A stretch of 30,976 bases of DNA from a virus (lineage: Duplodnaviria; Heunggongvirae; Uroviricota; Caudoviricetes). The position numbers and the translations under genes were made by a program. Location of the stretch: IMG/VR virus record IMGVR_UViG_3300030444_000240; one strand, written 5' to 3'. Of the stretch, positions 1-30,749 are shown one piece after another. Positions within the stretch are counted from its first letter, which is position 1; each line of letters begins with the position of its first letter. Below the pieces are notes generated by a model, which ran no database searches, was not told the DNA's origin, and saw only the letters and a program-made list of their open reading frames with translations.

Positions 1-3000
1 TTTCTCGGTGCCATGACGGAGGATGATGCCCGTCCTGAGGCACTGCGCCGTTTTGAACTGATGGTGGAAGAGGTGGCGCGTAACGCGTCCGCGGTGGCAC
101 AGAACACGGCAGCCGCGAAGAAGTCAGCCAGCGATGCCAGCACATCAGCCCGTGAGGCGGCAACCCATGCGACTGATGCTGCAGGCTCAGCACGCGCAGC
201 CAGCACGTCAGCCGGACAGGCTGCTTCGTCGGCTCAGTCAGCGTCTTCCAGCGCAGGAACGGCATCAACAAAGGCCACTGAAGCATTAAAAAGTGCTGCC
301 GCTGCAGAGTCCTCAAAAAGCGCGGCGGCTACCAGTGCCGGTGCGGCGAAAACGTCAGAAACGAATGCGGCAGCGTCACAACAATCAGCAGCCACTTCTG
401 CATCCACCGCGACCACGAAAGCGTCAGAAGCAGCCACTTCAGCACGGGATGCGTCGGCTTCAAAAGAGGCGGCAAAATCATCAGAAACGAACGCATCATC
501 AAGCGCCAGTAGTGCCGCTTCCTCGGCAACGGCGGCAGGAAATTCCGCGAAGGCGGCAAAAACGTCCGAGACGAACGCCAGGTCTTCTGAAACGGCAGCG
601 GGACAGAGCGCCTCGGCTGCGGCAGGCTCAAAAACAGCGGCTGCATCATCTGCCAGCGCCGCGTCAACAAGTGCCGGGCAGGCCTCAGCCAGTGCCACCG
701 CTGCCGGAAAGTCGGCAGAAAGTGCCGCATCGTCTGCTTCAACAGCCACAACGAAGGCTGGCGAAGCCACTGAGCAGGCCACGGCAGCAGCGAGGTCTGC
801 TTCCGCAGCGAAGACATCCGAAACGAACGCAAAAGCGTCGGAAACCCGTGCAGAATCCTCAAAAACGGCAGCGGCATCGTCCGCCAGTTCGGCGGCGTCA
901 TCGGCATCATCGGCGTCTGCTTCAAAAGATGAGGCGACCAGACAGGCGTCAGCAGCGAAGGGCAGCGCCACGACGGCATCCACGAAGGCGACAGAGGCTG
1001 CTGGCAGTGCGACGGCAGCAGCTCAGAGCAAAAGTACGGCGGAATCTGCAGCAACGCGCGCTGAGACAGCGGCAAAACGGGCAGAGGATATTGCATCCGC
1101 CGTGGCGCTTGAGGATGCGAGCACGACGAAAAAGGGGATAGTACAGCTCAGTAGTGCGACTAACAGCACTTCCGAGTCACTGGCGGCAACACCAAAAGCC
1201 GTTAAGGCCGCGTATGACCTGGCTAACGGGAAATACACCGCACAGGATGCAACGACAGCACAGAAAGGGATAGTTCAGCTAAGCAGTGCGACCAACAGTA
1301 CGTCTGAAACGCTGGCGGCAACGCCAAAGGCAGTAAAATCAGCCTATGACAATGCAGAGAAACGTCTGCAGAAAGACCAGAACGGCGCTGATATACCCGA
1401 TAAGGGACGCTTCCTGAACAACATTAACGCGGTCAGTAAAACAGACTTTGCTGATAAGCGTGGTATGCGTTATGTGCGGGTTAACGCTCCTGCAGGTGCA
1501 ACATCTGGAAAATATTACCCTGTTGTTGTTATGCGTTCTGCTGGCTCAGTAAGCGAACTGGCATCAAGGGTCATTATCACCACGGCAACGCGAACCGCAG
1601 GCGATCCGATGAATAACTGCGAGTTTAACGGATTTGTTATGCCTGGTGGCTGGACTGACAGGGGGCGTTATGCTTATGGAATGTTCTGGCAATATCAAAA
1701 CAATGAACGAGCCATCCACTCAATAATGATGAGTAATAAGGGCGATGATTTGCGCTCTGTGTTCTATGTTGATGGCGCAGCTTTCCCTGTTTTTGCGTTT
1801 ATCGAAGATGGCCTGTCAATATCCGCACCTGGTGCTGATCTCGTTGTTAATGATACGACCTATAAGTTTGGGGCAACAAATCCAGCGACTGAATGTATCG
1901 CGGCGGACGTTATCCTTGATTTTAAGAGTGGGCGTGGTTTTTATGAGTCTCATTCGTTAATCGTTAACGATAACTTGTCATGCAAAAAACTTTTTGCCAC
2001 AGACGAAATTGTAGCGCGTGGTGGTAATCAGATTCGAATGATAGGTGGGGAGTATGGTGCATTATGGCGTAATGATGGCGCTAAAACTTACCTGCTGCTT
2101 ACCAATCAAGGTGATGTTTATGGTGGCTGGAATACATTAAGACCGTTTGCTATTGATAACGCAACCGGCGAACTGGTTATTGGAACCAAACTGTCCGCAA
2201 GTCTGAACGGTAATGCATTAACAGCAACAAAGCTGCAAACGCCAAGACTGGTTTCTGGTGTTGAGTTTGATGGTTCCAAAGATATTACTTTAACCGCCGC
2301 GCATGTGGCTGCTTTTGCCAGAAGGGCAACGGATACATATGCCGATGCGGATGGTGGCGTTCCCTGGAATGCCGAATCAGGCGCTTACAATGTCACCCGC
2401 TCTGGCGACAGCTATATTCTGGTTAACTTCTATACCGGAGTCGGAAGTTGCCGGACCCTGCAGATGAAGGCGCATTACAGAAATGGTGGTCTGTTCTACC
2501 GTTCTTCAAGAGACGGTTATGGTTTTGAGGAAGGCTGGGCAGAAGTTTATACCTCGAAAAATCTTCCACCAGAAAGCTACCCAGTCGGCGCACCAATCCC
2601 GTGGCCATCAGATACCGTTCCGTCTGGTTATGCCCTGATGCAGGGGCAGACTTTTGACAAATCTGCCTACCCGAAACTTGCAGCCGCTTATCCGTCAGGC
2701 GTGATCCCTGATATGCGTGGCTGGACGATTAAGGGCAAACCCGCCAGTGGTCGTGCCGTATTGTCTCAGGAACAGGACGGCATTAAATCGCACACCCACA
2801 GCGCCAGCGCATCCAGTACGGATTTGGGTACGAAAACCACATCGTCGTTTGATTACGGCACTAAATCCACGAATAACACCGGGGCGCATACCCATAGTTT
2901 AAGTGGCAGCACGAATGCAGCTGGTAATCACAGCCATAGAGATGGCCGTCGATTTAACCCCAGTGTTTTTAAAGATACTTATCAATATGGTTATACAAGC

Positions 3001-3267
3001 TCAGGTCAAAATACCTGGGATGTACAAGGCTCAGTAGGTATGTCTACGGGGTGGTTAGCTAATACCAGTACAGATGGTAATCATAGCCACTCACTGTCCG
3101 GCACAGCAGCATCTGCAGGTGCACACGCGCATACTGTCGGTATTGGTGCTCATACGCACTCTGTTGCGATTGGCTCACATGGACACACCATCACCGTTAA
3201 CGCTGCTGGTAACGCGGAAAACACCGTCAAAAACATCGCATTTAACTACATTGTGAGGCTTGCATAA
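1..3267 (+). CDS. stf: Side tail fiber protein, lambda Stf-like (5' partial; frame open from window position 1)
   Basis: Translation begins [24 protein letters not shown], then a long Ala/Ser/Thr-rich segment with KTSETNA repeats, and ends with PIPWPSD...[10 protein letters not shown] and His-rich GAHTHS/GSHGHT repeats and [11 protein letters not shown], matching the lambda Stf architecture as recalled. The central part (about 1380-2550) is a different, non-repetitive domain, and there is a tandem repeat of a [28 protein letters not shown] unit at about 1129-1350. Confidence 0.9.
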
Positions 3268-3838
3268 TGGCATTCAGAATGAGTGAACAACCACGGACCA
3301 TAAAAATTTATAATCTGCTGGCCGGAACTAATGAATTTATTGGTGAAGGTGACGCATATATTCCACCTCATACAGGTCTGCCTGCAAACAGTACCGATAT
3401 TGCACNNNNNNNNNNNNNNNNNNNNNNNNNNNNNNNNNNNNNNNNNNNNNNNNNNNNNNNNNNNNNNNNNCATCTCGTTGAAGATCATCGGGGTAAAACG
3501 GTTTATGACGTGGCTTCCGGCGACGCGTTATTTATTTCTGAACTCGGACCGCTACCGGAAAATGTTACCTGGTTGTCGCCGGGAGGGGAATATCAGAAGT
3601 GGAACGGCACAGCCTGGGTGAAGGATACGGAAGCAGAAAAACTGTTCCGGATCCGGGAGGCAGAAGAAACAAAAAACAGCCTGATGCAGGTAGCCAGTGA
3701 GCATATTGCGCCACTTCAGGATGCTGTAGATCTGGAAATCGCAACGGAGGAAGAAATCTCGTTGCTGGAAGCATGGAAGAAGTATCGGGTGTTGCTGAAC
3801 CGTGTTGATACATCAACTGCACCTGATATTGAGTGGCC
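3141..3838. repeat. Direct repeat copy 1 (stf 3' end plus tfa), about 700 bp, nearly identical by eye to 27794-28482
   Basis: Aligned by eye: tattggtgctcatacgcact... through ...gatattga(g/a)tggcc, with scattered substitutions. Copy 1 contains the N gap. Confidence 0.8.
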
Positions 3839-3860
3839 GATAATTCCTGTAACATCATAG
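3267..3860 (+). CDS. tfa: Tail fiber assembly protein (Tfa), copy 1; interrupted by an N gap
   Basis: [46 protein letters not shown] ... matches lambda Tfa as recalled; the ATG overlaps the stf stop (TAATG). Residues across 3406-3470 are unknown. Confidence 0.85.
3406..3470. other. Assembly gap or masked bases (65 N)
   Basis: Run of n characters in the sequence. Confidence 1.
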
Positions 3861-6585: not shown

Positions 6586-6711
6586 CGTCGCTCGGGAGCC
6601 GCGGCTCCTTTGCGTATCCTTTTTTGTCTCCTCACCGTCTGGTCGGTGTCCTGCTGAGACTGCTAACTTCCTGTTTTTGTTGGTGTTGTCCTTACACCGT
6701 CCAATCATGAT

Positions 6712-6744
6712 TGGTGGAGCTGGCGGGAGTTGAACCCGAGTCCG
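6712..6744 (-). other. tmRNA (ssrA) 3'-end-like fragment; probable attachment-site core remnant
   Basis: Reverse complement GGACTCGGGTTCAACTCCCGCCAGCTCCACCA closely matches the E. coli ssrA 3' end as recalled (one mismatch). No tmRNA body upstream. Confidence 0.5.
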
Positions 6745-6816
6745 TATTTTTATAATTAGCTGAAATAAAACGATTAATACTAACCATTTTATTCTGCGGA
6801 TCTTTTGCGGCTCCTT

Positions 6817-7716
6817 TTATGTCTGGATGTGGTCGTCAACACATCCTCTTTTAAATACAGGCGCTTTTACCTTAGTTGGATCATCTGTTTTAAAGATTTT
6901 CAATCGTTCACTGAAGAACATTACCTCAGATCCTTTGTACCGATCTTGAGCACTGTAGTTTATTCCATATACTAATGATGATGTCTTATACATAGCTTGG
7001 ATCTCAGGAGTGTTATCGTAAGAAACAATCCAAGGTGTTTTAATATTATTCTGTACGACTTTTGCAACCCTAACATGATCATCATGATTATAATGGTTGA
7101 TATATAAACCTTTACCTTTTATGTAATAAGGTGGATCCAAATATGTTAATGAGTTTTGTGGCAATTGAATAACTATTTTTTTAATGAAATCAATTGCATC
7201 CATGTTATATAAATCTATTCTGTGACGATTTTCTGATATTTTATGGATTCGAGAAATCAAATCACTCTTATTATAGCGAGCGTCAAGCTTCCATTTCCCT
7301 TCTTGATTTTTACCGCCAATTACTCCACCTTTTAATATTCCAGAACGATTTGTTCTATTGAGAAAAAAGGTTGAGAAACCAATTGTTAAAAGATCATGGT
7401 CTTTAGGATTATTAATTATATCTTTCTGCCTAAACCATTCATCCATTGTAACTTCAGTTCTTTCAATTAAAGAACATAATTGATCTGCATGATTTAATAC
7501 ACTGTGCCAAAAAGCATAAACAGAAATATTAATATCATTAAGGATGATTTTTTCAGCTGCATTTAGATGTAACAGTTTCAATGCTAAACCAGCACCCCCA
7601 GCATATGGTTCGGCATAATGTATAGGCGAAAGATTATTTTCTTCAATAAGCCGAAGCATGAAATTTGCAAGCTTGCCTTTACCGCCAGGATAGCGAAGTG
7701 GGGTGTTAAAACGCAT
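6817..7716 (-). CDS. DNA N6-adenine methyltransferase, Dam/D12 class
   Basis: N-terminal RYPGGK, EPYAGGAG (AdoMet-binding motif I-like) and DPPY catalytic motif; 299 aa. Confidence 0.8.
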   Translation of the reverse strand: MRFNTPLRYPGGKGKLANFMLRLIEENNLSPIHYAEPYAGGAGLALKLLHLNAAEKIILNDINISVYAFWHSVLNHADQLCSLIERTEVTMDEWFRQKDIINNPKDHDLLTIGFSTFFLNRTNRSGILKGGVIGGKNQEGKWKLDARYNKSDLISRIHKISENRHRIDLYNMDAIDFIKKIVIQLPQNSLTYLDPPYYIKGKGLYINHYNHDDHVRVAKVVQNNIKTPWIVSYDNTPEIQAMYKTSSLVYGINYSAQDRYKGSEVMFFSERLKIFKTDDPTKVKAPVFKRGCVDDHIQT

Positions 7717-7750
7717 ATGATACCTCTAAATGTCAGATCTAAAGTATATC

Positions 7751-7789
7751 AAAAAAAGGGCTTTGTGGCCATCACATAAAGCCCTTTTT
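7751..7789 (-). terminator. Intrinsic terminator between the OLD-like gene and the MTase gene
   Basis: gggcttt-loop-aaagccc hairpin flanked by an A7 run and a T5 run; on the minus strand the stem is followed by a T-run. Confidence 0.6.
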
Positions 7790-7795
7790 AATCAA

Positions 7796-9529
7796 TTAGT
7801 TATCTGACAGATATGATGAGATGGTAGCAGAATCGACACCATGTCCACTTGTCATAATAACTTTAAGACTCTTTATTAGTTCATTCTTGAAGCTATCCGA
7901 TTGCACAGGATTTTTCTCGACCCAATATCGATATGGGTTATCTTTAACTCGCCCTTTTACTTGGGCCTGAAATTGAGTCGTATGTGCAAAATCTTTAAAC
8001 AGTTTTCTAACTATCCCGCCATGGTTTTTGTTAACTTTTTTATAATTATCTATAAGGATTTTTAAATCAATCGGAGCGTTACCAATCTTTAGCGTTGCAA
8101 TTATGTCTTTAGCTGTTTTCATAAAAACAGCTTTTGTAAATTTATTTTTATTTTCCCAATATGCATCATCAGGTGGTAAATTATATAAAAACTCAAAAAT
8201 CATTTGGTCTGGAGGTAAGGTGCTTGGAAGCAAACATAAGTTTTTTTCTTTTTTGGCTTTTTTTGCATTAGCACTATTGTCGTGAACAACATCACCGTCT
8301 AAGACGATCAAGCTTTTAGCTGTAAATTCTGGTATTTTTCTTGCCATTAAGTCAAGCATGGCAGAGCAGCTAATATTTATATTCCCTAATGGATTTAATA
8401 TTTTATTTATTTTTCGATCTGTTATCAATTGTTTGAAAAAGTCGAAACCTTCTTTGTCTTCAAAATATACATTTGCCTTTGGAAGACAAATGTCATCATT
8501 AATTTTTACAGTTTCAACATGTAAATCAGCGTGGATATCTGTCCATGAAAGATTATTCTTTGTTTTAATATCTCCATATGTGTCTGTAAGATATATTGTT
8601 TTAAAGCTATCACTATCTTGTTTTGAACGATTATAGATATCCTCTATTATTAATGGAGAGTGCGAGGTCATGATTATTTGCAGATCGTATTGTTTTGCTG
8701 CTTTAGTTAGAATATTAATTAGCTCTAACTGTGCAGCAGGGAAAAGACCTGCATCGGCTTCATCAATTAACAATATTCCGCCATGATAATCAGAATAAGT
8801 TTCCTTCAATCTTTTAAATGAAAAAATTGCTTGGATTAATTGTCCAACATTATCTTCACCAACAGATACTGATTGGTGATCATAATTGTCACCATGGACA
8901 ACCATTGAATCGATAGTACCTTTTGTTGCTGTTACTGAGCTTCCATTGTTTTTTAGTAAGAGTTGGTTACTCATCATTCTAATTTCATCAGAATTTTCAT
9001 TGATGTACTGAACATCCCGTGTTGAGTAATCAGTCCTTAATGTAATAGGAAGAAGTCGTGCTAAGCTTAAAAAAATAACAGGATGAGTAACGTTTCTACT
9101 TTGGTTTTTTTCCGGTATTGAATCATTTCCCCTGACTACAGGCCTTGATTTATCTCTGTCACTGTAGCTGTATAAACCTAATGTTAGTTTTTCAAGATGT
9201 TTGTTCGATGCACCATCATAGACACTAATTTTGACGTCCATTGAACCAGGAACATCAAATTGTTCTGAAAGCCTAAAATGTTCGCTGAAAGCTGACTTGA
9301 AGCTGCCATTTGTTAATGTTTTATATTGTGTTAAATCAGTCTCAGGGTTTTTGGTAAAGTCCTTTGTAAAGCTAAATATTTGGGCGATAATGCCAAGAAT
9401 TGTGGATTTAGATGTGCCATTTTTACCACAAATAACAGTTAGGCGAGAACCAAACTCGATGTTTATATTTTTCAGTCCGCGAAACTTCACAACATTTATA
9501 TTTTTTAGTTTGGTAATTTGATTTGCCAT
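7796..9529 (-). CDS. OLD-family ATP-dependent nuclease-like protein (ABC ATPase plus C-terminal Toprim-like domain)
   Basis: Walker A ICGKNGTSKST, Walker B ILLIDEAD, TSHSP motif, then C-terminal VYFEDKEGFDFF and LIVLDGD (DxD). Start chosen at MANQITKL (9529), which has a GGAG 9-13 nt upstream and a palindromic hairpin beyond it; the ORF track extends to 9580. Confidence 0.7.
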   Translation of the reverse strand: MANQITKLKNINVVKFRGLKNINIEFGSRLTVICGKNGTSKSTILGIIAQIFSFTKDFTKNPETDLTQYKTLTNGSFKSAFSEHFRLSEQFDVPGSMDVKISVYDGASNKHLEKLTLGLYSYSDRDKSRPVVRGNDSIPEKNQSRNVTHPVIFLSLARLLPITLRTDYSTRDVQYINENSDEIRMMSNQLLLKNNGSSVTATKGTIDSMVVHGDNYDHQSVSVGEDNVGQLIQAIFSFKRLKETYSDYHGGILLIDEADAGLFPAAQLELINILTKAAKQYDLQIIMTSHSPLIIEDIYNRSKQDSDSFKTIYLTDTYGDIKTKNNLSWTDIHADLHVETVKINDDICLPKANVYFEDKEGFDFFKQLITDRKINKILNPLGNINISCSAMLDLMARKIPEFTAKSLIVLDGDVVHDNSANAKKAKKEKNLCLLPSTLPPDQMIFEFLYNLPPDDAYWENKNKFTKAVFMKTAKDIIATLKIGNAPIDLKILIDNYKKVNKNHGGIVRKLFKDFAHTTQFQAQVKGRVKDNPYRYWVEKNPVQSDSFKNELIKSLKVIMTSGHGVDSATISSYLSDN

Positions 9530-9551
9530 GTTTCTATCTTGCTCCGTAAAA

Positions 9552-9570
9552 TGGCCACAAATTGTGGCCA
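9552..9570. other. Perfect 9+1+9 palindrome between the int 3' end and the OLD-like start
   Basis: tggccacaa-a-ttgtggcca; on the minus strand it is followed by ATTTTA. Could be the int terminator or a recombination or regulatory site. Confidence 0.4.
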
Positions 9571-9587
9571 ATAGTTTCATGCTTGGA

Positions 9588-10754
9588 TTATATTGTTATC
9601 TTCTTCAAGCTTGTTTGTCCATCATATTCCTTCAGATATGAGCCATAGTGCCTGAAAAGCATCTCAGGCCCTTTATGCCCCATTTGAGCTGCAAGCCAAA
9701 ACAGGTTTGCTCCCCGGCTGATATGTCTGGTGGCGAATGTATGCCTGGTTTGATATGGGTTTCTGTAACGAATACCTGCTTTTCGCAATGTTGGCACCCA
9801 TGCTTTTTTCCTAATTGCATCAGCACTTGCCCAGGGTTTATTGGTCTTTGGATCTTCAAAGACAGTAGCATCCTTCATGAATGTAAATGGCTTCTGGTTT
9901 ATCAACGCCAACATTGCTTCTTCAGTCAGTTCAACTTTACGGGTACCGGCTTTTGTCTTTGTTCCTTTGATAACTCCGACAACACTTGCGCTCTGAACAT
10001 GGGCTGTTTTTCCAACAAAGTCGATATCATGCCATCGTAGGGCACATAATTCAGAACTACGCAGGCCTGTATGTATGGCGAACCGGAACAGATTTTCCCA
10101 TTGTTTGTTTCCGGCTGCTGCTAGTAATGCATCAACTTCTGCTGGTGATAGCGGATCAACCACATAGCTGCTTTCTGCTTCTGACTTATCACTTTGGTAG
10201 CGCGAAGCAGTTACCAACGATACGGGGTTAATTTGAAGTACCCCATCGGTTACGGCTTCATCAAGTGCTGACCGCAGGAAAGATAACTGGTTGCGAATTG
10301 TTTTTAAGGTCGTTTTCTGGCTTTGAATCCACGCTTTCAGGATTGCTGGTGTTAATTCACTTGCAGGGCAAATGTGGAGTGAGGCTAACGCACTACGGCA
10401 TTTTTTATAACCACCAATCGTAGATGGTGAAAGTTTTCTCGTTTCGCAGATTTCAAGGTATTCGTCCAGGTACATTTTTACCGTTTTGCCTGCAGCAGCA
10501 TTACCAAAAATTTTCAAACGAGCAGAACGGGGAAAATATTCCGCATAAATGAATGTTCCCCTTTCGATCTTATTATGAATTTCGCCGAGTGTGCGCTCGG
10601 CGTATTTAATGTTCTTTGGTGTTACTTCCAGATTGGAAAGAGGCTCACGACATTTAACGCCTTTGTAGGTGAAAGTTATATTGATCGTTTCGCCCTGGCG
10701 GTGTTTCCTGATTGTTACGCCGCGCGGTAGTTTGAGCAGTTTTGTCTGGCCCAT
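9588..10754 (-). CDS. int: Tyrosine site-specific integrase
   Basis: 388 aa; C-terminal catalytic region with RHTFATRH (HxxR) and LFWLAAQMGHKGPEMLFRHYGSY (catalytic Tyr); N-terminal arm-binding-like segment. Confidence 0.9.
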   Translation of the reverse strand: MGQTKLLKLPRGVTIRKHRQGETINITFTYKGVKCREPLSNLEVTPKNIKYAERTLGEIHNKIERGTFIYAEYFPRSARLKIFGNAAAGKTVKMYLDEYLEICETRKLSPSTIGGYKKCRSALASLHICPASELTPAILKAWIQSQKTTLKTIRNQLSFLRSALDEAVTDGVLQINPVSLVTASRYQSDKSEAESSYVVDPLSPAEVDALLAAAGNKQWENLFRFAIHTGLRSSELCALRWHDIDFVGKTAHVQSASVVGVIKGTKTKAGTRKVELTEEAMLALINQKPFTFMKDATVFEDPKTNKPWASADAIRKKAWVPTLRKAGIRYRNPYQTRHTFATRHISRGANLFWLAAQMGHKGPEMLFRHYGSYLKEYDGQTSLKKITI

Positions 10755-20719: not shown

Positions 20720-20736
20720 TTTTGTGGAGAAAGTTG

Positions 20737-21114
20737 ATGCGTGATATTCAGATGGTTCTGGAGCGTTGGGGAGCATGGGCGGCTAATAATCATGAAGATG
20801 TGACCTGGTCGTCCATTGCCGCCGGTTTTAAGGGATTAATTCCTTCAAAAGTAAAATCTCGCCCGCAATGTTGTGACGATGACGCGATGATCATTTGCGG
20901 GTGCATGGCCCGTCTGAAAAAGAACAACAGCGATTTGCACGATTTATTGGTGGACTATTATGTCGGCGGCATGACTTTTATGGCGCTTGCACGTAAGCAT
21001 GGGCGATCTGATTGTTGGGTTGGCAGGATGCTCCAGAAAGCTGAGGGCGTAGTGGAGGGTATGCTGATGGTGTTGGATCTCCGATTGGAGATGGATGCTG
21101 ATTGTTCGAAATAA
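20737..21114 (+). CDS. Late-gene antiterminator Q-like protein
   Basis: Last gene of the early-right operon, immediately followed by a tR'-type terminator; Cys-rich ([12 protein letters not shown]). Start set at the ATG (MRDIQ); the track uses a TTG at 20722. Confidence 0.7.
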
Positions 21115-21794: not shown

Positions 21795-21986
21795 AATAAA
21801 TCCTGTACTTTTGATAGTTGAGAGTAAGTATGAAAGATAGATGATTACGACCGATCACTTAAAGAACTTTCATACTATATTAGGAATAGTCCATAACAGA
21901 AAAATTGTCAGTGATGACGCCAGAAAGGCAATTTATTCCGTGCACTACACAGTTTATGTGTTAATGAATTAGTCAAGGGGGAGGAT

Positions 21987-22946: not shown

Positions 22947-23297
22947 TTGTATGCGATATCATCCAAAAGGATGAGTTCCTGCATGCAGGATATTTACAAT
23001 CGTAAAAACTACACTATGATACCCAGAGTGTCAGTTTGTATAAAAACTCTGTTTACGCTGAAGAAACCATTGAGATGCAACTTAAAGTTGGTAAACATGC
23101 CAGTCAAAATATATAATATTATGATTCCACGCAGCTATATATAATATAACAGATTGGTTTAATAATTTGTCTTTGTGAGTTAAATACATAATTTTATACT
23201 TGTGATGCAATGAGATTTTCCTTATTGTTGAACTGGCGAATATTGATTTTCCACCTATACTTACCTGGTGTAACCCCAATGATATCAGGTGGATAAT

Positions 23298-24024
23298 ATG
23301 CCATACATATGTTCTATCATTTTGGTGTTGAACTCGTTTGATGTCCGAATTGGTAAAGAAGATATTTTATTTAAAAAAGGAAGTGCTGTTCTCATTGATT
23401 ACAATTTAAAAGATTTTTTTTTCATCAAATATAGATCATGCAATGATCGTAGATGTTGAAGAGAAAACAGTTAATGATTTCTTTAAAAGCAACACACTCT
23501 CACCTTTTTCTGTAAGAAGGTTTTATCCGGCATACTTGATGGTGGAATGTGAAGATTTTTCATTGTTAAAGAACTTGATTGCATGCTTGAATTGTGATGG
23601 CAGAACTGTGGATTTTGTTAGAAATCAAATATCACTTGCATGTCTTGCTATCTTATCTTCAGAGAAAATAGTGCAAAGTTTTTTATTTGGATGTCTTAAT
23701 AGTTTAGGAAGTAAAGTTAAGGCTATTATTCACACGGATATATCTGCAGCATGGAGACTTTGTGATATATCTTCAAGACTGTATCTGAGTGAAAGTCTGT
23801 TAAAAGGAAAATTAAAGCACGAAGGCTTATCATTTAGTAAGTTAATTCTTGAAGAGCGAATGGTGATGGCGGAAAGGTTATTAAGCTACAATTTATATTC
23901 TGTTGGAAAAGTTACTGAGATATGCGGTTATGAAAACACGTCATATTTTGTAAGTGTTTTCAGAAGATATTTTGGTGTTCCTCCCCATCAATATTCATCA
24001 AGATTTTTTTTAGAAAAGACATGA
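23298..24024 (+). pseudogene. AraC-family regulator gene interrupted by a frameshift at a T9 tract
   Basis: N-terminal frame (23298-23453) MPYICSIILVLNSFDVRIGKED... and C-terminal frame (23443-24024) with an AraC HTH region (FRRYFGVPPHQY) align to the intact paralog at 29997-30749; the frames meet at T9 (23414-23422), and T8 would restore one ORF. Confidence 0.6.
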
Positions 24025-24217: not shown

Positions 24218-24433
24218 ATGAAATCCATGGATAAGTTAACAACGGGCATTGCCTACGGCACCTCCGCAGGCAGTGCTGGCTACTGGTTTTTACAGCTGCT
24301 CGATAAAGTCACGCCCTCACAGTGGGCAGCAATAGGTGTGCTGGGTAGCTTGGTATTTGGCCTGCTGACGTACCTGACAAACCTTTATTTCAAGATTAAA
24401 GAAGATAAGCGCAAGGCTGCACGGGGAGAGTAA
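24218..24433 (+). CDS. Phage-21-type class II holin (pinholin, S21-like)
   Basis: [26 protein letters not shown]...[19 protein letters not shown] closely matches S21 as recalled, including the dual-start MKSM motif. Confidence 0.85.
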
Positions 24434-24437
24434 TTCA

Positions 24438-24752
24438 ATGACTCAAAACTATGAACTGATTGTGAAAGGGATCCGCAATTTTGAGAATAAAGTTACGGTA
24501 ACTTTAGCGTTACGGGACAAAAAACGCTTTGACGGTGAAATTTTTGACCTGGACATCTCGCTGGACCGTGTTGAAGGTGCCGCGCTGGAGTTTTATGAGG
24601 CAGCAGCCAGAAGGAGCATCAGACAGGTCTTCCTGGATGTTGCTGCCGGGTTATGTGAAGGGGACGAGCTGTTGCCAGAAACGCGCCCCTGTTCAGAGGC
24701 GCGGTATACCATAAAAATTAACAGTTCAGATAACTCGATTACGGGTTGTTAG
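24438..24752 (+). CDS. Hypothetical protein (104 aa) inserted between holin and endolysin
   Basis: ORF with no recognisable motif; its position is unusual for a lysis cassette. Confidence 0.45.
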   Translation: MTQNYELIVKGIRNFENKVTVTLALRDKKRFDGEIFDLDISLDRVEGAALEFYEAAARRSIRQVFLDVAAGLCEGDELLPETRPCSEARYTIKINSSDNSITGC

Positions 24753-24988
24753 CCTTTTGTTTCAGTTGGTTTTCCAATATCTTTCATTGGTAGCAACATT
24801 TCCAGATTGCTTTTGATATATGGATTATTTACATGTTCATTTAATTGATGAATGATTCCATTTTTTTCATTCTGGTCCAATACGGTAAATATTACTGTAA
24901 TCATATATTTAAGAGCTTCAATTTCTTTTGCTGTTGATGCAGGAGATGAGCAGTCAGCTGTAATATTGATAAAAACTTCTTTTTGCAT
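24749..24988 (-). CDS. Hypothetical protein (79 aa), AT-rich, antisense to the lysis operon
   Basis: ORF only; low-GC by eye. Confidence 0.3.
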   Translation of the reverse strand: MQKEVFINITADCSSPASTAKEIEALKYMITVIFTVLDQNEKNGIIHQLNEHVNNPYIKSNLEMLLPMKDIGKPTETKG

Positions 24989-25122
24989 ATCAAATCCTCA
25001 GATGGGGTAGCCCAGCCTGCATCCCCCATAATCCTTAACCAGAGCGCCAGTGTCCTACCACTGACGGGCTGAATGCTTAACATATCCAGGGTTCAGAAAC
25101 CGATAAATCCTGATAAATATCC

Positions 25123-25656
25123 ATGAACGTAAAAATCAGATACAGCCTGTCGGCTGCTGTTCTGGCACTGATTGCCGCCAGTGCTCCTGCACCTGACATT
25201 CTCGATCAGTTTCTTGATGAAAAAGAGGGGAATCACACCACTGCATACCGCGATGGCTCCGGCGTATGGACCATCTGTCGGGGAGCAACGATGGTGGACG
25301 GTAAACCTGTTATTCCGGGAATGAAACTGTCGAAGGAAAAATGCGCCCAGGTTAACGCCATTGAGCGGGATAAGGCGCTGGCATGGGTGGAGCGCAATAT
25401 AAAAGTTCCACTGACCGAGCCACAGAAAGCCGGTATCGCGTCATTCTGTCCCTATAACATTGGCCCTGGTAAGTGTTTTCCGTCGACGTTTTATAAGCGG
25501 CTTAATGCCGGTGATCGTAAAGGCGCATGCGAGGCGATTCGCTGGTGGATAAAGGACGGTGGACGTGATTGCCGTATTCGTTCAAATAATTGTTACGGTC
25601 AGGTTATTCGTCGTGACCAGGAGAGTGCATTAACCTGCTGGGGGATAGACCAGTGA
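25123..25656 (+). CDS. SAR endolysin (lysozyme-like, R21-type)
   Basis: N-terminal Ala-rich signal-anchor-release segment [15 protein letters not shown]; E-x8-D-x5-T catalytic triad spacing ([16 protein letters not shown]). Confidence 0.85.
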
Positions 25657-26156
25657 GCCTGTGCTCCCAGCTTATTGTTGCCGCGGTACTAGTGACCAGT
25701 GCGTTTATCGCTGGAAATATATGGTGTAGCCGCGGTTGGGAAAAAAAGTGGGCGGAACGTGACAGCGCGGAATCATCGCAAACAGCGAACGCGCAGACCG
25801 CAGCCCGCATGATTGAACAAGGGCGCATAATTGCCCGTGATGAGGCTGTAAAAGATGCACAAGCACAAGCAGCTAAATCTGCTGCCACTGCTGCTGGCCT
25901 GTCTGCCACTGTTAACCAGCTGCGCACCGAAGCAACAAAGCTTGCCGCCCGCCTGGACGCCGCAAAGCACACCGCAGATCTTGCCGCTGCCGTCAGAAGC
26001 AAAACAGCCGGAGCCGACGCCGCAGTGCTCGCCGACATGCTCGGCCGCCTTACAGAAGAAGCTCGATATTATGCTGAGCGATCTGACGAAAGCTACCGGG
26101 CTGGAATGACGTGTGAGCGCGTTTATGAGTCGGTGAGGACATCAAATTACAATTGA
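25653..26156 (+). CDS. Rz: Rz-like i-spanin
   Basis: N-terminal TM helix, Ala/Gln-rich coiled-coil-like body; start overlaps the endolysin stop. Confidence 0.7.
25855..26109 (+). CDS. Rz1: Rz1-like o-spanin lipoprotein embedded in the +1 frame of Rz
   Basis: Signal peptide with lipobox LLTSC followed by a Pro-rich mature region; nested in Rz as expected. Confidence 0.6.
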
Positions 26157-26251: not shown

Positions 26252-26944
26252 TTATTCAATGGCATCTAAAATTTCATATGCTTCATTAACAAAATCTCTT
26301 ATTTCTTTTAGACATAACTCTACAAAAGGAATGACCTCATAATCTGTACCGTGGAATCTTATTTTTTTCTCTTCGGTTATGTTAATATTGATGGGGATTC
26401 CGTTCCCTGATTTTTCAACTTTACCATTTTCAATGGTGAAGTCTTCAATTCTCTGTCCATTGGTGAAATTATCTCTGAAAATGATTTTTGATGTAGCATC
26501 TGTCTTAATTAATCCAAACCCATTGATATTAACATCTATTCCTCGAACAATACTATCTTCACTCAATGGGATTGGTTTCCTATGTTTTACTTCGTTCGTG
26601 AGGTTACACATCATTCCAAGCCAGTTATTACCAGTTTGATAGTCTTGGATTGAAACAAAAACTGCATATAATGGAGATAATTCAGGTTGCTGGCAGTTTA
26701 ATTTTTTAATAAAGAAAGCATCTAAAAATTTTTTCTCGCCGTATGGGAAATAAATTTTTGGCCGAGGGGTTGATTGGTTAGTGGTATGTTTTTCATAACT
26801 ATCATTCGCAACGTATTCTAATGCGCTTCTTAAATTTTCAAGTATTGATTTAACCTTTACTGGTTTTATTTGTTGCGTATCTTTTAATATTTCAACGGTT
26901 TCTTCAACTTCTTGCAATAAATCTAACGTTCCTTCTCTGGACAT
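26252..26944 (-). CDS. Hypothetical protein (230 aa), AT-rich moron between the lysis cassette and cos
   Basis: ORF of unknown family in low-GC DNA, opposite in orientation to the flanking phage genes. Confidence 0.5.
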   Translation of the reverse strand: MSREGTLDLLQEVEETVEILKDTQQIKPVKVKSILENLRSALEYVANDSYEKHTTNQSTPRPKIYFPYGEKKFLDAFFIKKLNCQQPELSPLYAVFVSIQDYQTGNNWLGMMCNLTNEVKHRKPIPLSEDSIVRGIDVNINGFGLIKTDATSKIIFRDNFTNGQRIEDFTIENGKVEKSGNGIPININITEEKKIRFHGTDYEVIPFVELCLKEIRDFVNEAYEILDAIE

Positions 26945-27059
26945 TCTTAGTCTCCGTTAAGGTTTTGGGGCAAGTTTTTATAACTATTAGATTATCAATT
27001 AAATATTATGCCATATGCTTGCATGTAGTTGAACAGCCAACAAGAAAACAACAAAGCAT

Positions 27060-27287
27060 CTCATTTACGGGTCCTTTCCGGCGATCCGGGCTGTTACGGG
27101 GCGGCGACCTCGCGGGTTTTCGCTATTTATGAAAATTTTCCGGTTTAAGGCATTTCCGTTCTTCTTCGTTGTAACTTAATGTTTTTATTTAAAATACCCC
27201 CTGAAAAGAAAGGAAACGACAGGTGCTGAAAACGAGCTTTTGGGCCTCTGTCGTTTCCTTTCTCTGTTTTTGGCCGTGGAATGAACA
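27060..27287 (+). other. Lambda-type cos site (cosQ-cosN-cosB); cohesive-end sequence GGGCGGCGACCT at 27099-27110
   Basis: ACGGGTCCTTTCCGG...GTTACGGGGCGGCGACCTCGCGGGTTTTCGCTATTTATGAAAATTTTCCGGTTTAAGGC matches the joined lambda ends as recalled, directly upstream of the Nu1 start. Confidence 0.8.
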
Positions 27288-27908
27288 ATGGAAGTCAACA
27301 AAAAGCAGCTGGCTGACATTTTCGGTGCGAGTATCCGTACCATTCAGAACTGGCAGGAACAGGGAATGCCCGTTCTGCGAGGCGGTGGCAAGGGTAATGA
27401 GGTGCTTTATGACTCTGCCGCCGTTATAAAATGGTATGCCGAAAGGGATGCTGAAATTGAGAACGAAAAGCTGCGCCGGGAGGTTGAAGAACTGCGCCAG
27501 GCCAGCGAGGCAGATCTCCAGCCAGGGACTATTGAGTACGAACGCCATCGACTTACGCGTGCGCAGGCCGACGCACAGGAACTGAAGAATGCCAGAGACT
27601 CCGCTGAAGTGGTGGAAACCGCATTCTGTACTTTCGTGCTGTCGCGGATCGCAGGTGAAATTGCCAGTATTCTCGACGGGATCCCCCTGTCGGTGCAGCG
27701 GCGTTTTCCGGAACTGGAAAACCGACATGTTGATTTCCTGAAACGGGATATCATCAAAGCCATGAACAAAGCAGCCGCGCTGGATGAACTGATATTGGTG
27801 CTCATACGCACTCCGTTGCGATTGGTTCACATGGACATACCATCACCGTTAACGCTGCTGGTAACGCGGAAAACACCGTCAAAAACATCGCATTTAACTA
27901 TATTGTGA
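27288..27908 (+). pseudogene. nu1: Terminase small subunit Nu1, 3'-truncated and fused out of frame to the 3' end of a tail fiber gene
   Basis: MEVNKKQLADIFGASIRTIQNWQEQGMPVLRGGGKGNEVLYDSAAVIKWY... matches lambda Nu1 to about residue 169 (AAALDELI); from about 27794 the DNA matches the stf 3' end read in another frame. Confidence 0.8.
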
Positions 27909-28482
27909 GGCTTGCATAATGGCATTCAGAATGAGTGAACAACCACGGACCATAAAAATTTATAATCTGCTGGCCGGAACTAATGAATTTATTGGTGAAG
28001 GTGACGCATATATTCCGCCTCATACAGGTCTGCCAGCAAACAGTACCGATATTGCACCGCCAGATATTCCGGCAGGCTTCGTGGCTGTTTTCAACAGTGA
28101 TGAGGCATCGTGGCATCTCGTTGAAGATCATCGGGGTAAAACGGTTTATGACGTGGCTTCCGGCGACGCGTTATTTATTTCTGAACTCGGTCCGTTACCG
28201 GAAAATGCCACTTGGTTATCCCCGGAAGGGGAGTTTCAGAAGTGGAACGGCACAGCCTGGGTGAAAGATGCAGAAGCAGAAAAACTATTCCGGATCCGGG
28301 AGGCGGAAGAAACAAAAAACAGCCTGATGCAGGCAGCGAATGAGCATATTGCGCCACTTCAGGATGCTGTAGATCTGGAAATCGCAACGGAGGAAGAAAA
28401 CTCGTTGCTGGAAGCCTGGAAAAAGTATCGGGTGTTGCTGAACCGTGTTAATACAACAACTGCTCCGGATATTGAATGGCCA
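27794..28482. repeat. Direct repeat copy 2 (stf 3' end plus tfa), nearly identical by eye to 3141-3838
   Basis: See copy 1; the junction with Nu1 is at about 27794-27796. Confidence 0.8.
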
Positions 28483-28500
28483 GTAGCACCTATAGGGTAA
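27919..28500 (+). CDS. tfa: Tail fiber assembly protein (Tfa), copy 2, intact
   Basis: 193 aa, [74 protein letters not shown]...; nearly identical to copy 1 until the C-terminal tail. Confidence 0.9.
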
Positions 28501-29358
28501 ATTCGTAATGATTACCTAAATACGTTATTCTTTTGTTCAAAAAGTGATTTTGCTATAGGTAGGGAGTATGTTCTTGGATTAAGAATAAAAATCGCCATGA
28601 AAGAGCTTCATGGCGAGTACATAAACGTACAAAATGTGATGAAAGTAGAGTGGCGTAAGCCACTATATTAAGATGTGACAATAGCGAACAAAAGTAAATA
28701 ACATTTTATGGACGTTTAATTGTTAATTATAAAAACTAGAGTGCCCGATATTGTTTATCTTGCTTTAAAATAATGTACTCAAACCAAATTTTTGAGCTAA
28801 AAGCTCAAATAATATAAATGCAATGATAATGTTTAATAAGACAATTAGCTTGCTTTGTATTTTCATTTCGGAATACTGTTAAGTAACTTTGATGACCCTA
28901 ACAATAGATCGGAATTTTCTTAGAGTCAATGGTCACTGTTTTTGTTTGCAAAGCAAATGTTTTGGTGGTTATAAGTTGTCTTAATATAGTCACGCATGCA
29001 ACTTGTTCCATGCGGAGATTAAAGATTGGAATATAACGCGAAGATGGAATTAAATTACATTTGCAATAATCAATTTATTATTACTCAATAATTACCGATA
29101 TTATTATTGTAAATTAATCATTAGAGTGCAAAAAGAAATGTAACGGCAAAATAAGAGGACGATAGCTGAGAAAAAAGCGTGCTTTCCCAATCTGGGGCAA
29201 ATCACGTCTGAATGACACCTGAAAACAGGTAGTAGCCTCAAGAAGGCTTGGAATATTCTTCTTTAATGTTATGTAATTCATTGATTTTTCGTGTACGATT
29301 TTAAGACATTTATTCCAAGAAAAATTTTTAACTCTTTGATTTTTCGACTCTGTATCAT

Positions 29359-29438: not shown

Positions 29439-29491
29439 NNNNNNNNNNNNNNNNNNNNNNNNNNNNNNNNNNNNNNNNNNNNNNNNNNNNN
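29439..29491. other. Assembly gap or masked bases (53 N)
   Basis: Run of n characters 18 nt after the tRNA fragment. Confidence 1.
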
Positions 29492-29996: not shown

Positions 29997-30749
29997 GTGG
30001 ATGATATGGCAACTACATGTTCAGTTATATTGATTTTGGAGTCCTTTGATGTTTATTTCGGAAAAGAGAGTGTGTTTCTGGAGAGAGGTTCATCTGTACT
30101 TGTCGACTCTAGCTCTAGAGATTTTTTCCTGACATATCCTGAAAGAGTGATAGTGGCGGATTTTGGCGCTGAGTTTATTAGTCGCTATTTGAAAGCTAAT
30201 AACTTAAGGGATATTTCTGATTGTAGGGAATATCCATCTTATTTAAAAATAAACTTTGCTGACTTCAGTTTAATTAAAGGATTAATTAGTTGGGCTAATC
30301 ACTGTGCTGAATACATAGAAATTTTTGATGAGTCTATTGCTTTTACATGTCTCTCTGCATTTTCTTCTGAAAAACAATTTGGAGTATTTCTGTTTGAATG
30401 TTTGAAAAGCACAGGGGCTAAAGTTAAAACGATTATTCATACGGATTTATCTGCACCATGGCGTCTTAAGGATATATCATCAAGATTATATCTCAGCGAA
30501 AGTTTACTAAAGAGGAAATTGAAAGAAGAGGGGGTATCATTCAGTAAGATCATACTTGATGAGAGGATGCAAATGGCTGAATATTTACTCTGCACTCGTT
30601 GTTATCCTATTAGTAAAGTAGCTAAGGTCTGTGGTTATGCCAGTGTCTCATACTTTACTTATGTATTTAGACGTTATTTTGGTGTTTCTCCAAGTCAATA
30701 CTCTCAGAGGAGTTCAGAAAGTAAAATTCTTACTCACCAGGGAATCTGA
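29997..30749 (+). CDS. AraC-family transcriptional regulator (AppY/EnvY-like)
   Basis: 250 aa; C-terminal HTH region WRLKDISSRLYLSESLLKRKLKEEGVSFSKIILDERMQMAEYLL ... YFTYVFRRYFGVSPSQY. Confidence 0.8.
   Translation: MDDMATTCSVILILESFDVYFGKESVFLERGSSVLVDSSSRDFFLTYPERVIVADFGAEFISRYLKANNLRDISDCREYPSYLKINFADFSLIKGLISWANHCAEYIEIFDESIAFTCLSAFSSEKQFGVFLFECLKSTGAKVKTIIHTDLSAPWRLKDISSRLYLSESLLKRKLKEEGVSFSKIILDERMQMAEYLLCTRCYPISKVAKVCGYASVSYFTYVFRRYFGVSPSQYSQRSSESKILTHQGI

What the first reader, a model, noticed from the sequence alone, without database searches (positions are those of the whole stretch)
27060..27919. Intact cos site, but Nu1 is fused to a tail-fiber 3' end: the whole morphogenesis region is deleted
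The cos region and the first roughly 169 codons of Nu1 match lambda as recalled. At 27794-27796 the sequence switches to the last about 120 nt of stf and then tfa, with only a 2-nt microhomology (TA), suggesting an illegitimate-recombination deletion of terminase large subunit, head and tail genes. The prophage is therefore defective for particle production but keeps regulation, replication and lysis genes and a packaging site. The K-12 cryptic prophages show a similar Nu1-homolog next to tail-fiber remnants, as I recall.
Basis: partly seen in the sequence, partly recalled or inferred. Interest (0 to 1): 0.6.

Follow-up and report, generated by a model that had tools for sequence, protein, structure and literature searches.

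The report
Gutted lambda-like prophage, recurrent Nu1 breakpoint
This is a lambda-like prophage in E. coli that has lost about 22 kb of virus-particle genes, which is ordinary, but the cut lies at one exact nucleotide of the small-terminase gene where at least 45 other independent deletions in E. coli prophages also start.

Summary
Window 27061-27794 is lambda cos plus Nu1 codons 1-169 (97.7% identical to lambda). From 27795 the sequence is the last 125 nt of a side-tail-fibre gene (stf), then an intact tfa. The two parents share only TA at the joint. Full-length relatives show about 21.9 kb is missing: the Nu1 3' end, A to J, lom and most of stf. The junction is not an assembly artefact. The exact 206-aa junction ORF occurs on at least 8 other contigs from other samples with the same chromosomal flank. 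The "fusion" is out of frame.

The new point is that the left breakpoint is not random. Nu1 nt 507 (...CTGATA|CCGGGG) is also where K-12 Qin nohA loses lambda homology. It is also joined to at least 45 different partners across the late region and beyond. Of 38 partners with a readable parent, 32 have TA just left of the break, against 3% expected. Three complete E. coli genomes with this locus carry two other Nu1::stf junctions in 100%-identical flanks. The stf acceptor positions are themselves reused.

I read this as a recurrent, sequence-directed break followed by short-homology joining. The enzyme is unknown. I found no published description.

The parts
27069..27110 (+). cosQ-like heptamer GGGTCCT (27069-27075) and cosN; the 12-nt cohesive end GGGCGGCGACCT is at 27099-27110
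   Evidence: Alignment with lambda and Qin: cosN identical, five substitutions between cosQ and cosN. Element names and positions are from established lambda knowledge.
27150..27264 (+). cosB region (R3, R2, R1 Nu1-binding repeats)
   Evidence: one substitution at the start of R3; R2 and R1 identical to lambda.
27288..27794 (+). Nu1 (small terminase) codons 1-169, truncated after ...GATGAACTGATA
   Evidence: PF07471, 334 bits, profile 1-164/164.
27793..27794 (.). Junction: the TA shared by the Nu1 and stf parents. This is the recurrent Nu1 nt-507 breakpoint.
27795..27919 (+). Last 125 nt of a side-tail-fibre gene (stf), including its stop codon
   Evidence: 96.8% to window 3143-3267; 100% to S43 and NCTC11023.
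27288..27908 (+). Junction ORF, 206 aa: Nu1 1-169 plus 37 aa read out of frame through the stf remnant
   Evidence: Exact sequence on at least 8 other contigs.
27919..28500 (+). Intact tail-fibre assembly gene tfa
   Evidence: (PF02413, 146 bits).
24218..26156 (+). Lysis cassette: holin, DUF1327, lysozyme, Rz-like DUF2514
   Evidence: Same cassette as in the full-length relatives TK3889 and ETEC1738.
26252..26944 (-). 230-aa ORF of unknown function (phrog_13652) between Rz and cos; a marker of this prophage lineage
6711..10754 (-). Left end of the prophage: ssrA-3'-end-like att core (about 6711-6745), PD-Lambda-5_B-type methyltransferase, AAA ATPase with weak partial matches to defence ATPases, and integrase
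13..3860 (+). Intact stf (1084 aa) and tfa of a different, upstream prophage. This is the internal comparison copy of the acceptor sequence; the acceptor TA lies at 3141-3142.

Best explanation
Window 6711 to about 28500 is a defective lambda-family prophage sitting in the E. coli mmuM/afuC to yagP/pao region. It keeps integrase, repressor, replication initiator, Q, lysis genes and a lambda-type cos. After Nu1 codon 169 it jumps to the last 125 nt of stf and an intact tfa. About 21.9 kb is gone: the Nu1 C-terminus, terminase A, all head and tail genes, lom and most of stf. It therefore cannot cut cos or build particles. The joint was made by illegitimate, short-homology joining at a shared TA (shown). 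The left breakpoint is a recurrent, sequence-determined one (shown). The top strand ends at ...CTGATA-3' (Nu1 nt 507) in at least 45 independent alleles. The partner is chosen by a few bases of imperfect identity to that end, with TA nearly obligatory. My inferred mechanism is as follows. A DNA break or nick recurs at this site (G-R-T-A|N-N-G-G-like). DNA to its right is lost, and the 3' end anneals at a TA-containing microhomology and is sealed or extended. For this locus the most economical history is one large ancestral deletion (Nu1 nt 507 to stf -1821) followed by second breaks at the same site. Those second breaks gave the window allele, the NCTC11023 allele and the S43/MB06022 allele. 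The enzyme that makes the break is not identified.
For: Anatomy. Missing block defined against full-length relatives. Junction real. Same Nu1 breakpoint as Qin. Other partners at the same nucleotide: metagenome contigs L018/19, L021, L022, L025; viral contigs L087, L088, L091, L094, L097-L099, L103; protein clusters. Among the best 120 Nu1 homologues, 36 lose lambda homology after aa 169, against 0-2 at any other codon between 145 and 168. Several alleles lie on 4.6-5.4 Mb contigs. 32 of 38 partners have TA left of the break, against 3.06% background. Nu1's other GATA (nt 460-463, GGGATA|TC) is not used. The site is also used in DLP12, which lacks a functional terminase A. Polarity: no reciprocal alleles in viral contigs, against 9 contigs carrying non-Qin left-fixed junctions. 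Locus alleles with 100%-identical flanks. Reuse of the stf acceptor at window 1402 by Nu1 nt 507 (L099), essD (CFSAN061772) and Nu1 nt 72 (NCTC11023). Reuse of the window's own stf acceptor by a J donor ...GCGATA|CC.
Against: No nuclease, recombinase or IS element accounts for the site. The motifs I tested all fail: Chi, the gyrase consensus, Din/hix, the lambda Int core, a cosN half-site, GajA TNNNS|RGGNNA and HNH AC|CGR. The local hairpin is not better than shuffles (z = 0.06). The survey is centred on Nu1 and ranked by score, so breakpoints far upstream in Nu1 are under-sampled. The proposed ancestral allele at this locus was not found in 5,426 complete genomes. Five or six partners lack TA. 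Selection for a Nu1(1-169) product cannot be excluded as a contributor. Function of the retained cos is untested.
Confidence: 0.85

Rival explanations
1. The junction is an assembly artefact: a repeat-induced misjoin between the Nu1 repeat and the second stf/tfa copy, with intact late genes really lying between them.
For: stf/tfa occurs twice in the window, and cos-Nu1 is repeated in most E. coli genomes.
Against: The parents share only 2 nt at the joint. The identical junction ORF is on at least 8 other contigs from different samples and naming schemes, with the same flank. Sister alleles at the same locus in complete genomes also lack late genes.
Confidence: 0.02
2. The event was an ordinary one-off microhomology deletion, and the coincidence with Qin and the other alleles is chance or shared descent.
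For: A 2-nt microhomology is typical of illegitimate recombination. Qin's second junction (J'::stf') uses an unrelated CAGCC microhomology. The S43 junction uses GGAA.
Against: At least 45 different right partners map to A, B, C, E, FI, FII, Z, V, K, I, J, lom, stf, tfa, an integrase, DLP12 ybcY and nfrB. They cannot descend from one junction. The window's Nu1 lacks Qin's diagnostic SNPs. There are 36 clusters at aa 169 against 0-2 at neighbouring codons.
Confidence: 0.05
3. Selection, not mutation, focuses the breakpoint. A Nu1 protein that keeps the DNA-binding and self-assembly domains but lacks the gpA-binding tail and gpA is beneficial, for example as a dominant-negative blocker of incoming lambda-type packaging. 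Only deletions starting in the last ~50 nt of Nu1 survive, and TA-containing microhomologies there are few.
For: The break lies just after the Pfam Nu1 domain (aa 164). The junction ORFs are intact in many genomes. A minor second cluster at aa 176 (...GAATATA|) is the only other ATA in that stretch.
Against: The tails are random (12-143 aa, in or out of frame), so protein-level selection cannot demand single-nucleotide precision. GC-rich microhomologies in the same 50 nt are not used. The sister alleles S43 (codon 110) and NCTC11023 (codon 24) persist at this locus. Acceptor sites are reused independently of Nu1.
Confidence: 0.12
4. A site-specific recombinase or transposase acts on pseudo-sites with a TA crossover or target dinucleotide. 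Candidates are a serine recombinase, a TA-targeting IS transposase using a cryptic end, or IS insertion followed by enhancer-assisted excision-deletion. The DNA between the Nu1 site and secondary sites is excised.
For: One endpoint is fixed with variable partners. TA is near-obligatory at partners (32/38). There is interrupted similarity on both sides of the break (GG at +3/+4 in 12 of 40 partners I tabulated). Some joints are to the opposite strand (P0034), as expected from intramolecular transposition or inversion. Precedent, from my own knowledge: Int-promoted lambda deletions anchored at att, and Cin quasi-sites selected by the central dinucleotide.
Against: No allele with an IS or other element at nt 507 was found. 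There is no match to Din/hix or the lambda Int core. The prophages carry unrelated integrases, and DLP12 and Qin contexts both work. Exceptions without TA keep the Nu1 end fixed, which suits a free 3' end better than a crossover.
Confidence: 0.2
5. The element is a functional helper-dependent satellite. Loss of structural genes with retention of cos, lysis, replication and integrase is adaptive, and the roughly 21.8 kb unit (half a lambda genome) would be packaged as a dimer by a lambda-type helper.
For: cos looks intact. Int, repressor and replication initiator are present. The distance from att core to tfa end is about 21.8 kb. The same right arm is found attached to different early regions (L010).
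Against: Only one att core is present in the window or in 20 kb of S43's right flank. The three complete genomes with this locus (S43, NCTC11023, MB06022) and contig L007 have IS-mediated or other erosion of the early region. No packaging-redirection genes were recognised. There is no evidence of mobilisation.
Confidence: 0.05

Closest known systems
Qin cryptic prophage of E. coli K-12 type (nohA - J remnant - stf remnant - tfaQ - pinQ)
   Same: It has cos and a Nu1 homologue followed by tail-fibre remnants and tfa, with all head and tail genes gone. The Nu1 sequence leaves lambda homology at the very same nucleotide (CTGATA|), and the partner has GATA left of the break.
   Different: Qin joins Nu1 to a 300-nt J fragment and then, through a second CAGCC-microhomology junction, to a longer stf remnant. 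It lies at ydfJ, has pinQ and has lost its integrase. The window joins Nu1 directly to stf -125, lies in the mmuM/yagP region and keeps an integrase. Its Nu1 lacks Qin's SNPs.
DLP12 cryptic prophage (nohD - aaaD - tfaD - ybcY - tfaX - appY)
   Same: It has lambda-type cos and a Nu1 homologue next to tail-fibre-assembly remnants and an AraC-type regulator. Derivatives of DLP12 broken at the same Nu1 nt 507 exist (L091, L025).
   Different: In the K-12 form nohD is complete and the break lies in gene A. It sits at a different chromosomal site (argU).
Alternative (microhomology-mediated) end joining in E. coli, and short-homology illegitimate recombination (own knowledge: Chayot et al. 2010; Ikeda laboratory Spi- assays)
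   Same: There are 0-6 nt of homology at the joint, kilobase-scale loss on one side, and no need for phage functions.
   Different: Those processes are not known to start from one fixed nucleotide. Here one end is invariant in at least 45 events and TA is nearly obligatory.
Deletions anchored at an enzyme's own site (own knowledge): Int-promoted lambda deletions from att (Davis and Parkinson 1971), and illegitimate recombination at the nick site of M13/pC194 origins (Michel and Ehrlich 1986)
   Same: The signature is the same: one fixed endpoint, and many variable partners that weakly resemble the fixed site.
   Different: No recombinase core, origin or nickase is known at lambda bp 697. The site lies inside the Nu1/A overlap region.
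cos-type phage satellites (PICI-like elements of Gram-negative bacteria)
   Same: They carry a lambda-type cos plus integrase, repressor and replication genes without virion genes.
   Different: This element is visibly a decayed lambdoid prophage with lysis genes and stf/tfa remnants. It has no recognised helper-exploitation genes and no second att site.

Membership tests
Lambda-family prophage with lambda-type cos/terminase module | cosN cohesive-end sequence and cosB Nu1-binding repeats | tested here: met
   the 12-nt cosN is identical; R2 and R1 are identical and R3 has one change.
Lambda-family prophage with lambda-type cos/terminase module | Small terminase Nu1 (PF07471) immediately right of cos | tested here: met
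   334 bits; 97.7% nt identity to lambda; truncated at codon 169.
Lambda-family prophage with lambda-type cos/terminase module | Large terminase A and head/tail genes downstream of Nu1 | tested here: not met
   no such ORFs between 27795 and 30976. They are present in the relatives TK3889 and ETEC1738.
Lambda-family prophage with lambda-type cos/terminase module | Q antiterminator, then holin, endolysin and Rz upstream of cos; integrase and S24 repressor | tested here: met
Cryptic lambdoid prophage of the Qin/DLP12 kind | Nu1 homologue retained, morphogenesis genes deleted, tail-fibre 3' remnant plus tfa retained | tested here: met
Cryptic lambdoid prophage of the Qin/DLP12 kind | Orthologous locus (Qin at ydfJ; DLP12 at argU/appY/ompT) | tested here: not met
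   The right flank is AraC-like, an IS3 remnant, a LysR-type remnant (yagP position by my knowledge of the K-12 map), then paoDCBA and yagU, in S43, NCTC11023, MB06022 and metagenome contigs.
Cryptic lambdoid prophage of the Qin/DLP12 kind | Same junction sequence as Qin (Nu1 nt 507::J fragment) | tested here: not met
   The left breakpoint is the same but the right partner differs.
cos-type phage satellite (PICI-like) | Flanking att repeats allowing excision | tested here: not met
   There is one ssrA-like core at 6716. No second copy is in the window or in 20 kb of S43's right flank. One N-masked run (29439-29491) was read in S43 and holds no core.
cos-type phage satellite (PICI-like) | Helper-dependent induction and packaging; packaging-redirection genes | not testable with these tools
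   No such genes were recognised by Pfam, PHROGs or PADLOC among the ORFs scanned. Mobilisation needs an experiment.
Enzyme-anchored (site-specific) deletion | One invariant endpoint reused in independent events | tested here: met
   At least 45 partners at Nu1 nt 505-507.
Enzyme-anchored (site-specific) deletion | Conserved short motif at partner sites | tested here: met
   TA in 32 of 38 against 3.06% background. GATA and GGTA are each about 2-fold over the TA-site background.
Enzyme-anchored (site-specific) deletion | An identified enzyme with a matching recognition site | tested here: not met
   None of the compared sites fits: Chi, the gyrase consensus, Din/hix, the lambda Int core, a cosN half-site, GajA and HNH AC|CGR. 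The motif comparisons were made by eye against the sequence.

The most novel reading that the evidence does not exclude
Lambda-family prophages of E. coli carry a sequence-determined fragile or recombinogenic site at the Nu1/A boundary (lambda bp about 697, CTGATA|CCGGGG). An unidentified host or prophage enzyme repeatedly breaks it, and the outcome is polar loss of the virion genes with retention of cos and Nu1(1-169). This would be a specific, recurrent route of prophage 'grounding' that produced Qin nohA, variants of DLP12, this element and dozens of others. Similar G-R-T-A|N-N-G-G sites in stf, J and essD are reused as partners.
Probability: 0.5. Interest if true: 0.75.

Novelty: new member of a known kind. 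Interest (0 to 1): 0.55.

Why it matters
As a single locus this is one more decayed lambdoid prophage, and I score that part low. The comparison it triggered matters more. Prophage decay is usually modelled as random deletion filtered by selection. Here one nucleotide in the best-studied phage gene cluster appears as the starting point of at least 45 independent deletions. These include the classical K-12 relic Qin, and the partner-site signature is tight. If this is a true mutational hot spot, three things follow. It identifies a specific molecular route by which E. coli disarms lambda-type prophages while keeping cos, lysis genes and a truncated DNA-binding terminase subunit. It predicts an enzyme or structure that can be found with simple genetics in a lambda lysogen. 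It also warns annotators that 'terminase small subunit' and 'Ail/Lom' or 'tail terminator' calls of 185-312 aa in E. coli are often junction ORFs.

Tried and rejected
1. Mis-assembly: rejected.
2. Derivation from Qin by gene conversion: rejected. The window's Nu1 lacks Qin's SNPs and has no J fragment.
3. Chi-arrested RecBCD end: rejected. There is no GCTGGTGG near the site. The nearest top-strand Chi is at window 25541, and the late regions of lambda and TK3889 are Chi-free. The neighbouring GCTGGATG has two mismatches and the wrong spacing.
4. Hairpin-directed cleavage or stalling: a 9-bp imperfect stem puts the break at the 3' end of the loop, but the fold is no better than shuffles (z = 0.06). 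There is no long palindrome.
5. By-eye comparisons that failed: the gyrase consensus (needs T/G|GRYC), a topo I C at -4, Din/hix sites, the lambda Int core CAACTTNNT plus overlap, dif/Xer, Ter, the DnaA box, cosN half-sites (only the flank AACCC..G matches), EcoKI/EcoBI/EcoP15I sites, and |CCSGG restriction enzymes (these fit the cut position but cannot explain its uniqueness or polarity).
6. GajA-type nickase: its motif TNNNS|RGGNNA almost fits but would cut 3 nt away, and GajA's lambda site is elsewhere.
7. HNH AC|CGR nickase: this would cut 1 nt away and does not fit the J donor.
8. IS or other element sitting at nt 507: none was seen among the right partners identified; L088 was not identified.
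9. Reciprocal alleles keeping A with upstream loss: none in viral contigs. The first pattern only recovered natural Nu1 variants.
10. Test of the variant Nu1 allele (GAAATAATA|): 0 junctions, but uninterpretable because hit lists cap at 60.
11. Search for the postulated ancestral allele (Nu1 nt 507::stf -1821) at this locus: not found in complete genomes. L099 has that junction but in another prophage.
12. Exact junction in GTDB representatives: none.
13. Literature: four searches found no description of the breakpoint.
Full report
1. THE OBSERVATION

A megablast against phage records splits window 27000-28600 into two pieces. Window 27061-27794 matches cos plus Nu1 of lambda and its relatives (97.7% to lambda over 734 nt). 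Window 27793-28600 matches the end of a tail-fibre gene plus the tail-fibre assembly gene of phage ev099 (96.5%). The two pieces overlap by two bases.

Aligning the junction with the intact stf/tfa at the start of the window shows what follows Nu1. Window 27795-27919 is the last 125 nt of stf, with 4 mismatches to 3143-3267. After it comes a complete tfa (27919-28500; PF02413). The parents read Nu1 ...GAACTGATA|CCGGGG and stf ...CTGTCGGTA|TTGGTGC, so they share only TA.

The cos region aligns base for base with lambda and Qin. The 12-nt cohesive end is identical. R2 and R1 are identical, R3 has one change, and five changes lie between cosQ and cosN.

Nu1 is exactly 169 codons and covers the whole Pfam Nu1 profile. 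The ORF continues out of frame through the stf remnant for 37 codons. "Fused" is therefore true of the DNA but not of the proteins.

2. WHAT IS MISSING, AND IS THE JUNCTION REAL?

Two complete E. coli genomes, TK3889 and ETEC1738, carry the same lysis cassette, the same unusual 230-aa ORF, cos and Nu1. In both, the canonical lambda A-W-B-C-D-E-FI-...-J-lom-stf-tfa block follows. Mapped on TK3889, the window lacks 21,898 bp.

The exact 206-aa junction ORF is called on at least 8 other contigs from different metagenome samples and naming schemes. Where the contig continues past tfa, it carries the same right flank: tfa, an AraC-like gene, an IS3 remnant, a LysR-type remnant, then paoDCBA and yagU (cluster data). 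A misjoin across a 2-nt identity is not a plausible assembler error either. No complete E. coli genome and no GTDB representative has this exact joint.

3. THE ELEMENT AS A WHOLE

From an ssrA-3'-end-like att core at about 6711 the prophage encodes the following:
- a PD-Lambda-5_B-type adenine methyltransferase and an AAA ATPase with weak partial matches to several defence ATPases
- an integrase
- an S24 repressor and CII-like and Ash proteins
- an O-like replication initiator
- PerC, Dam, a LexA-like protein, RusA and KilA-N
- a DUF968/HNH protein and Q
- a lipocalin/YbgA/AraC-like moron block
- holin, lysozyme and an Rz-like protein

Its early region (6711-21023) is 99.7% identical to a prophage of strain KCJ3K291 that has a different, HK97-like late region. 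A metagenome contig attaches the same right arm to a lambda-P/nin-type early region (L010), so the element is a mosaic.

Only one att core is present in the window or in S43's right flank. I infer that it cannot excise. Window 1-6700 is the right end of another prophage.

4. SISTER ALLELES

The three complete genomes with this locus are 99.9-100% identical to the window on both sides of the joint but carry other junctions:
- S43 and MB06022: Nu1 nt 1-330 joined to stf -222 (GGAA microhomology)
- NCTC11023: Nu1 nt 1-72 joined to stf -1821

None can be derived from another. Their common ancestor therefore had at least 507 nt of Nu1 and at least 1.8 kb of stf.

5. THE BREAKPOINT IS RECURRENT

K-12-type Qin nohA leaves lambda homology at the same nucleotide as the window. 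There CTGATA| is followed by a J fragment whose parent reads GTGGATA|ACGGGG.

I scanned metagenome and viral contigs for the 21-mer ending in CTGATA followed by a non-lambda base. This gave further partners:
- in stf (three positions), J (two), capsid gene E, gene A, Z and lom
- in the DLP12 ybcY region and near nfrB
- one partner that I could not identify (L088)

A protein search with lambda Nu1 gave a sharp distribution (analysed). Of the best 120 clusters, 36 lose homology after aa 169. Smaller numbers fall at 170-176, and many of those are the same break with chance identities. Between aa 145 and 168, only 0-2 clusters end at any one codon.

The tails map to B, C, E, FI, FII, Z/U, V, K, I, J, lom, stf, tfa, an integrase and the antisense strand of early genes. 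One 90% cluster alone holds 68 members of 176-209 aa with many different tails. In all I count at least 45 distinct partners. Several lie on 4.6-5.4 Mb contigs, so they are not short-read artefacts.

6. THE SIGNATURE

Of 38 partners whose intact parent could be read, 32 have TA immediately left of the break. TA occupies 3.06% of positions in the late region. Microhomology among the first 30 was 0 nt in 4, 1 nt in 1, 2 nt in 15, 3 nt in 3, 4 nt in 5 and 6 nt in 2.

GATA and GGTA are each about twofold over the TA-site background. Several partners show imperfect 6-10-nt identity to ...GAACTGATA. GG at +3/+4, as in the Nu1 site itself, occurs in 12 of 40 partners I tabulated. Where TA is absent, the Nu1 end is still ...CTGATA or ...CTGAT.

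Nu1's other GATA (GGGATA|TC, nt 460-463) is not used. The site is used in DLP12 derivatives, which have no functional A. Reciprocal alleles, with A retained and upstream DNA lost, were not found in viral contigs, where 9 contigs carry non-Qin left-fixed junctions.

These features point to a top-strand 3' end fixed at nt 507 that pairs by a few terminal bases and is sealed or extended. That step is inference.

7. ACCEPTOR SITES ARE REUSED TOO

The stf position CCCGATA|AGGGACGC (window 1402) is the retained right end in three junctions with different left partners:
- Nu1 nt 507 (L099)
- essD ...TGGTA| (CFSAN061772)
- Nu1 nt 72 (NCTC11023, with a 1-2-nt A overlap)

The window's own acceptor, CGGTA|TTGGTGC, is also used by a J donor ...GCGATA|CCCGC in contig L021.

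This suggests an economical history for the locus. One large deletion (Nu1 nt 507 to stf -1821) came first. Further breaks at the surviving CTGATA| site then produced three outcomes:
- loss to the right gave the window allele
- loss to the left gave the NCTC11023 allele
- loss on both sides gave the S43/MB06022 allele

The postulated ancestor was not found at this locus, so this remains a hypothesis.

8. WHAT MAKES THE BREAK?

I could not identify the cause. Chi is absent. The local stem-loop is not significant. The following motifs do not fit by inspection: the gyrase consensus, topo I, Din/hix, the lambda Int core, Xer, Ter, cosN half-sites and Type I/III restriction sites.

GajA's motif would cut 3 nt away, and phage HNH AC|CGR nickases 1 nt away. 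None of the partners I could identify is an IS or other inserted element. |CCSGG restriction enzymes would cut exactly here, but they cannot explain the uniqueness of the site or its polarity.

Selection for a Nu1(1-169) product may contribute but cannot give single-nucleotide precision with random tails. Four literature searches found no description of the site.

9. VERDICT

As an object this is a new member of a known kind: a Qin/DLP12-like cryptic lambdoid prophage at a different locus.

The added value is the evidence that its left breakpoint belongs to a highly recurrent, sequence-directed class of events. That claim rests on a survey that is centred on Nu1 and ranked by score, and it lacks an enzyme. 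I give it about even odds of reflecting a specific, discoverable mechanism.

Noticed in passing
window 6817-9580 (- strand): A D12-class adenine methyltransferase matches PADLOC PD-Lambda-5_B at E = 5e-124. Next to it is a 594-aa AAA ATPase with weak partial hits to PtuA, GajA, AriA and an ATPase-Toprim model. The pair sits between the att core and the integrase and looks like a prophage-borne PD-Lambda-5-type defence system.
   Followed up: partly
window 6711-6745: The prophage's left boundary is a copy of the 3' end of ssrA (TGGTGGAGCTGGCGGGAGTTGAACCC...), shared with the KCJ3K291 prophage. No second copy was found to the right, and ARAGORN finds no tmRNA or tRNA in the window.
   Followed up: partly
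window 1-6700: This is the right end of a different prophage: a complete 1084-aa stf, tfa, and three minus-strand ORFs (317, 122 and 153 aa) with no Pfam, PHROG or PADLOC hit where tested. The two prophages are adjacent.
   Followed up: no
window 21270-24024: A moron block lies between Q and the holin: a lipocalin (-), a YbgA-family protein and a truncated AraC-like HTH protein. A second, paralogous AraC-like gene lies right of tfa (29997-30749).
   Followed up: no
window 26252-26944 (- strand): A 230-aa ORF sits between Rz and cos, where lambda has bor. It has no Pfam or PADLOC hit and matches phrog_13652 (unknown function). It is conserved in TK3889, ETEC1738, S43 and NCTC11023.
   Followed up: partly
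window 19724-20719: A DUF968 protein (the family of Qin YdfU) matches PHROG 96 'HNH endonuclease' (E = 3e-177) and has a CxxC...HH...CxxHH motif. It is a prophage nuclease of unknown specificity encoded 7 kb upstream of the hot spot. No link to the breakpoint was shown.
   Followed up: no
window 3406-3470 and 29439-29491: These are two runs of N (masked sequence). The first interrupts the upstream tfa. The second lies in the non-coding stretch between tfa and the AraC-like gene; in S43 it reads as ordinary sequence without an att core.
   Followed up: yes
H106, NZ_CP148393.1 (44.6-kb record of strain Z1323HEC0010): This plasmid-sized record is annotated with a ParA-family protein. It shares 61% of window 1-20783 (stf, integrase, DUF968 and others) at 97% identity and may be a phage-plasmid relative.
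   Followed up: no
Nu1 nt about 528 (lambda ...GTGAATATA|TCG), seen in P0009 and P0011: A minor second breakpoint cluster lies at aa 176, again right after an ATA, with partners in J and stf.
   Followed up: partly
L002 (S43), L003 (NCTC11023), L006 (MB06022), L007: In these relatives the early region of the same prophage is progressively eroded by IS1, IS3 and IS30 insertions and adjacent deletions (left boundary at afuB'/fbpC). The right arm stays 99.9-100% identical.
   Followed up: partly
protein hits P0016-P0039, P0030, P0043 and others: Public annotations such as 'Ail/Lom family outer membrane beta-barrel protein' (244 aa), 'phage tail terminator protein' (312 aa) and 'DNA-packaging protein FI' (232 aa) are in fact Nu1(1-169) junction ORFs.
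   Followed up: yes
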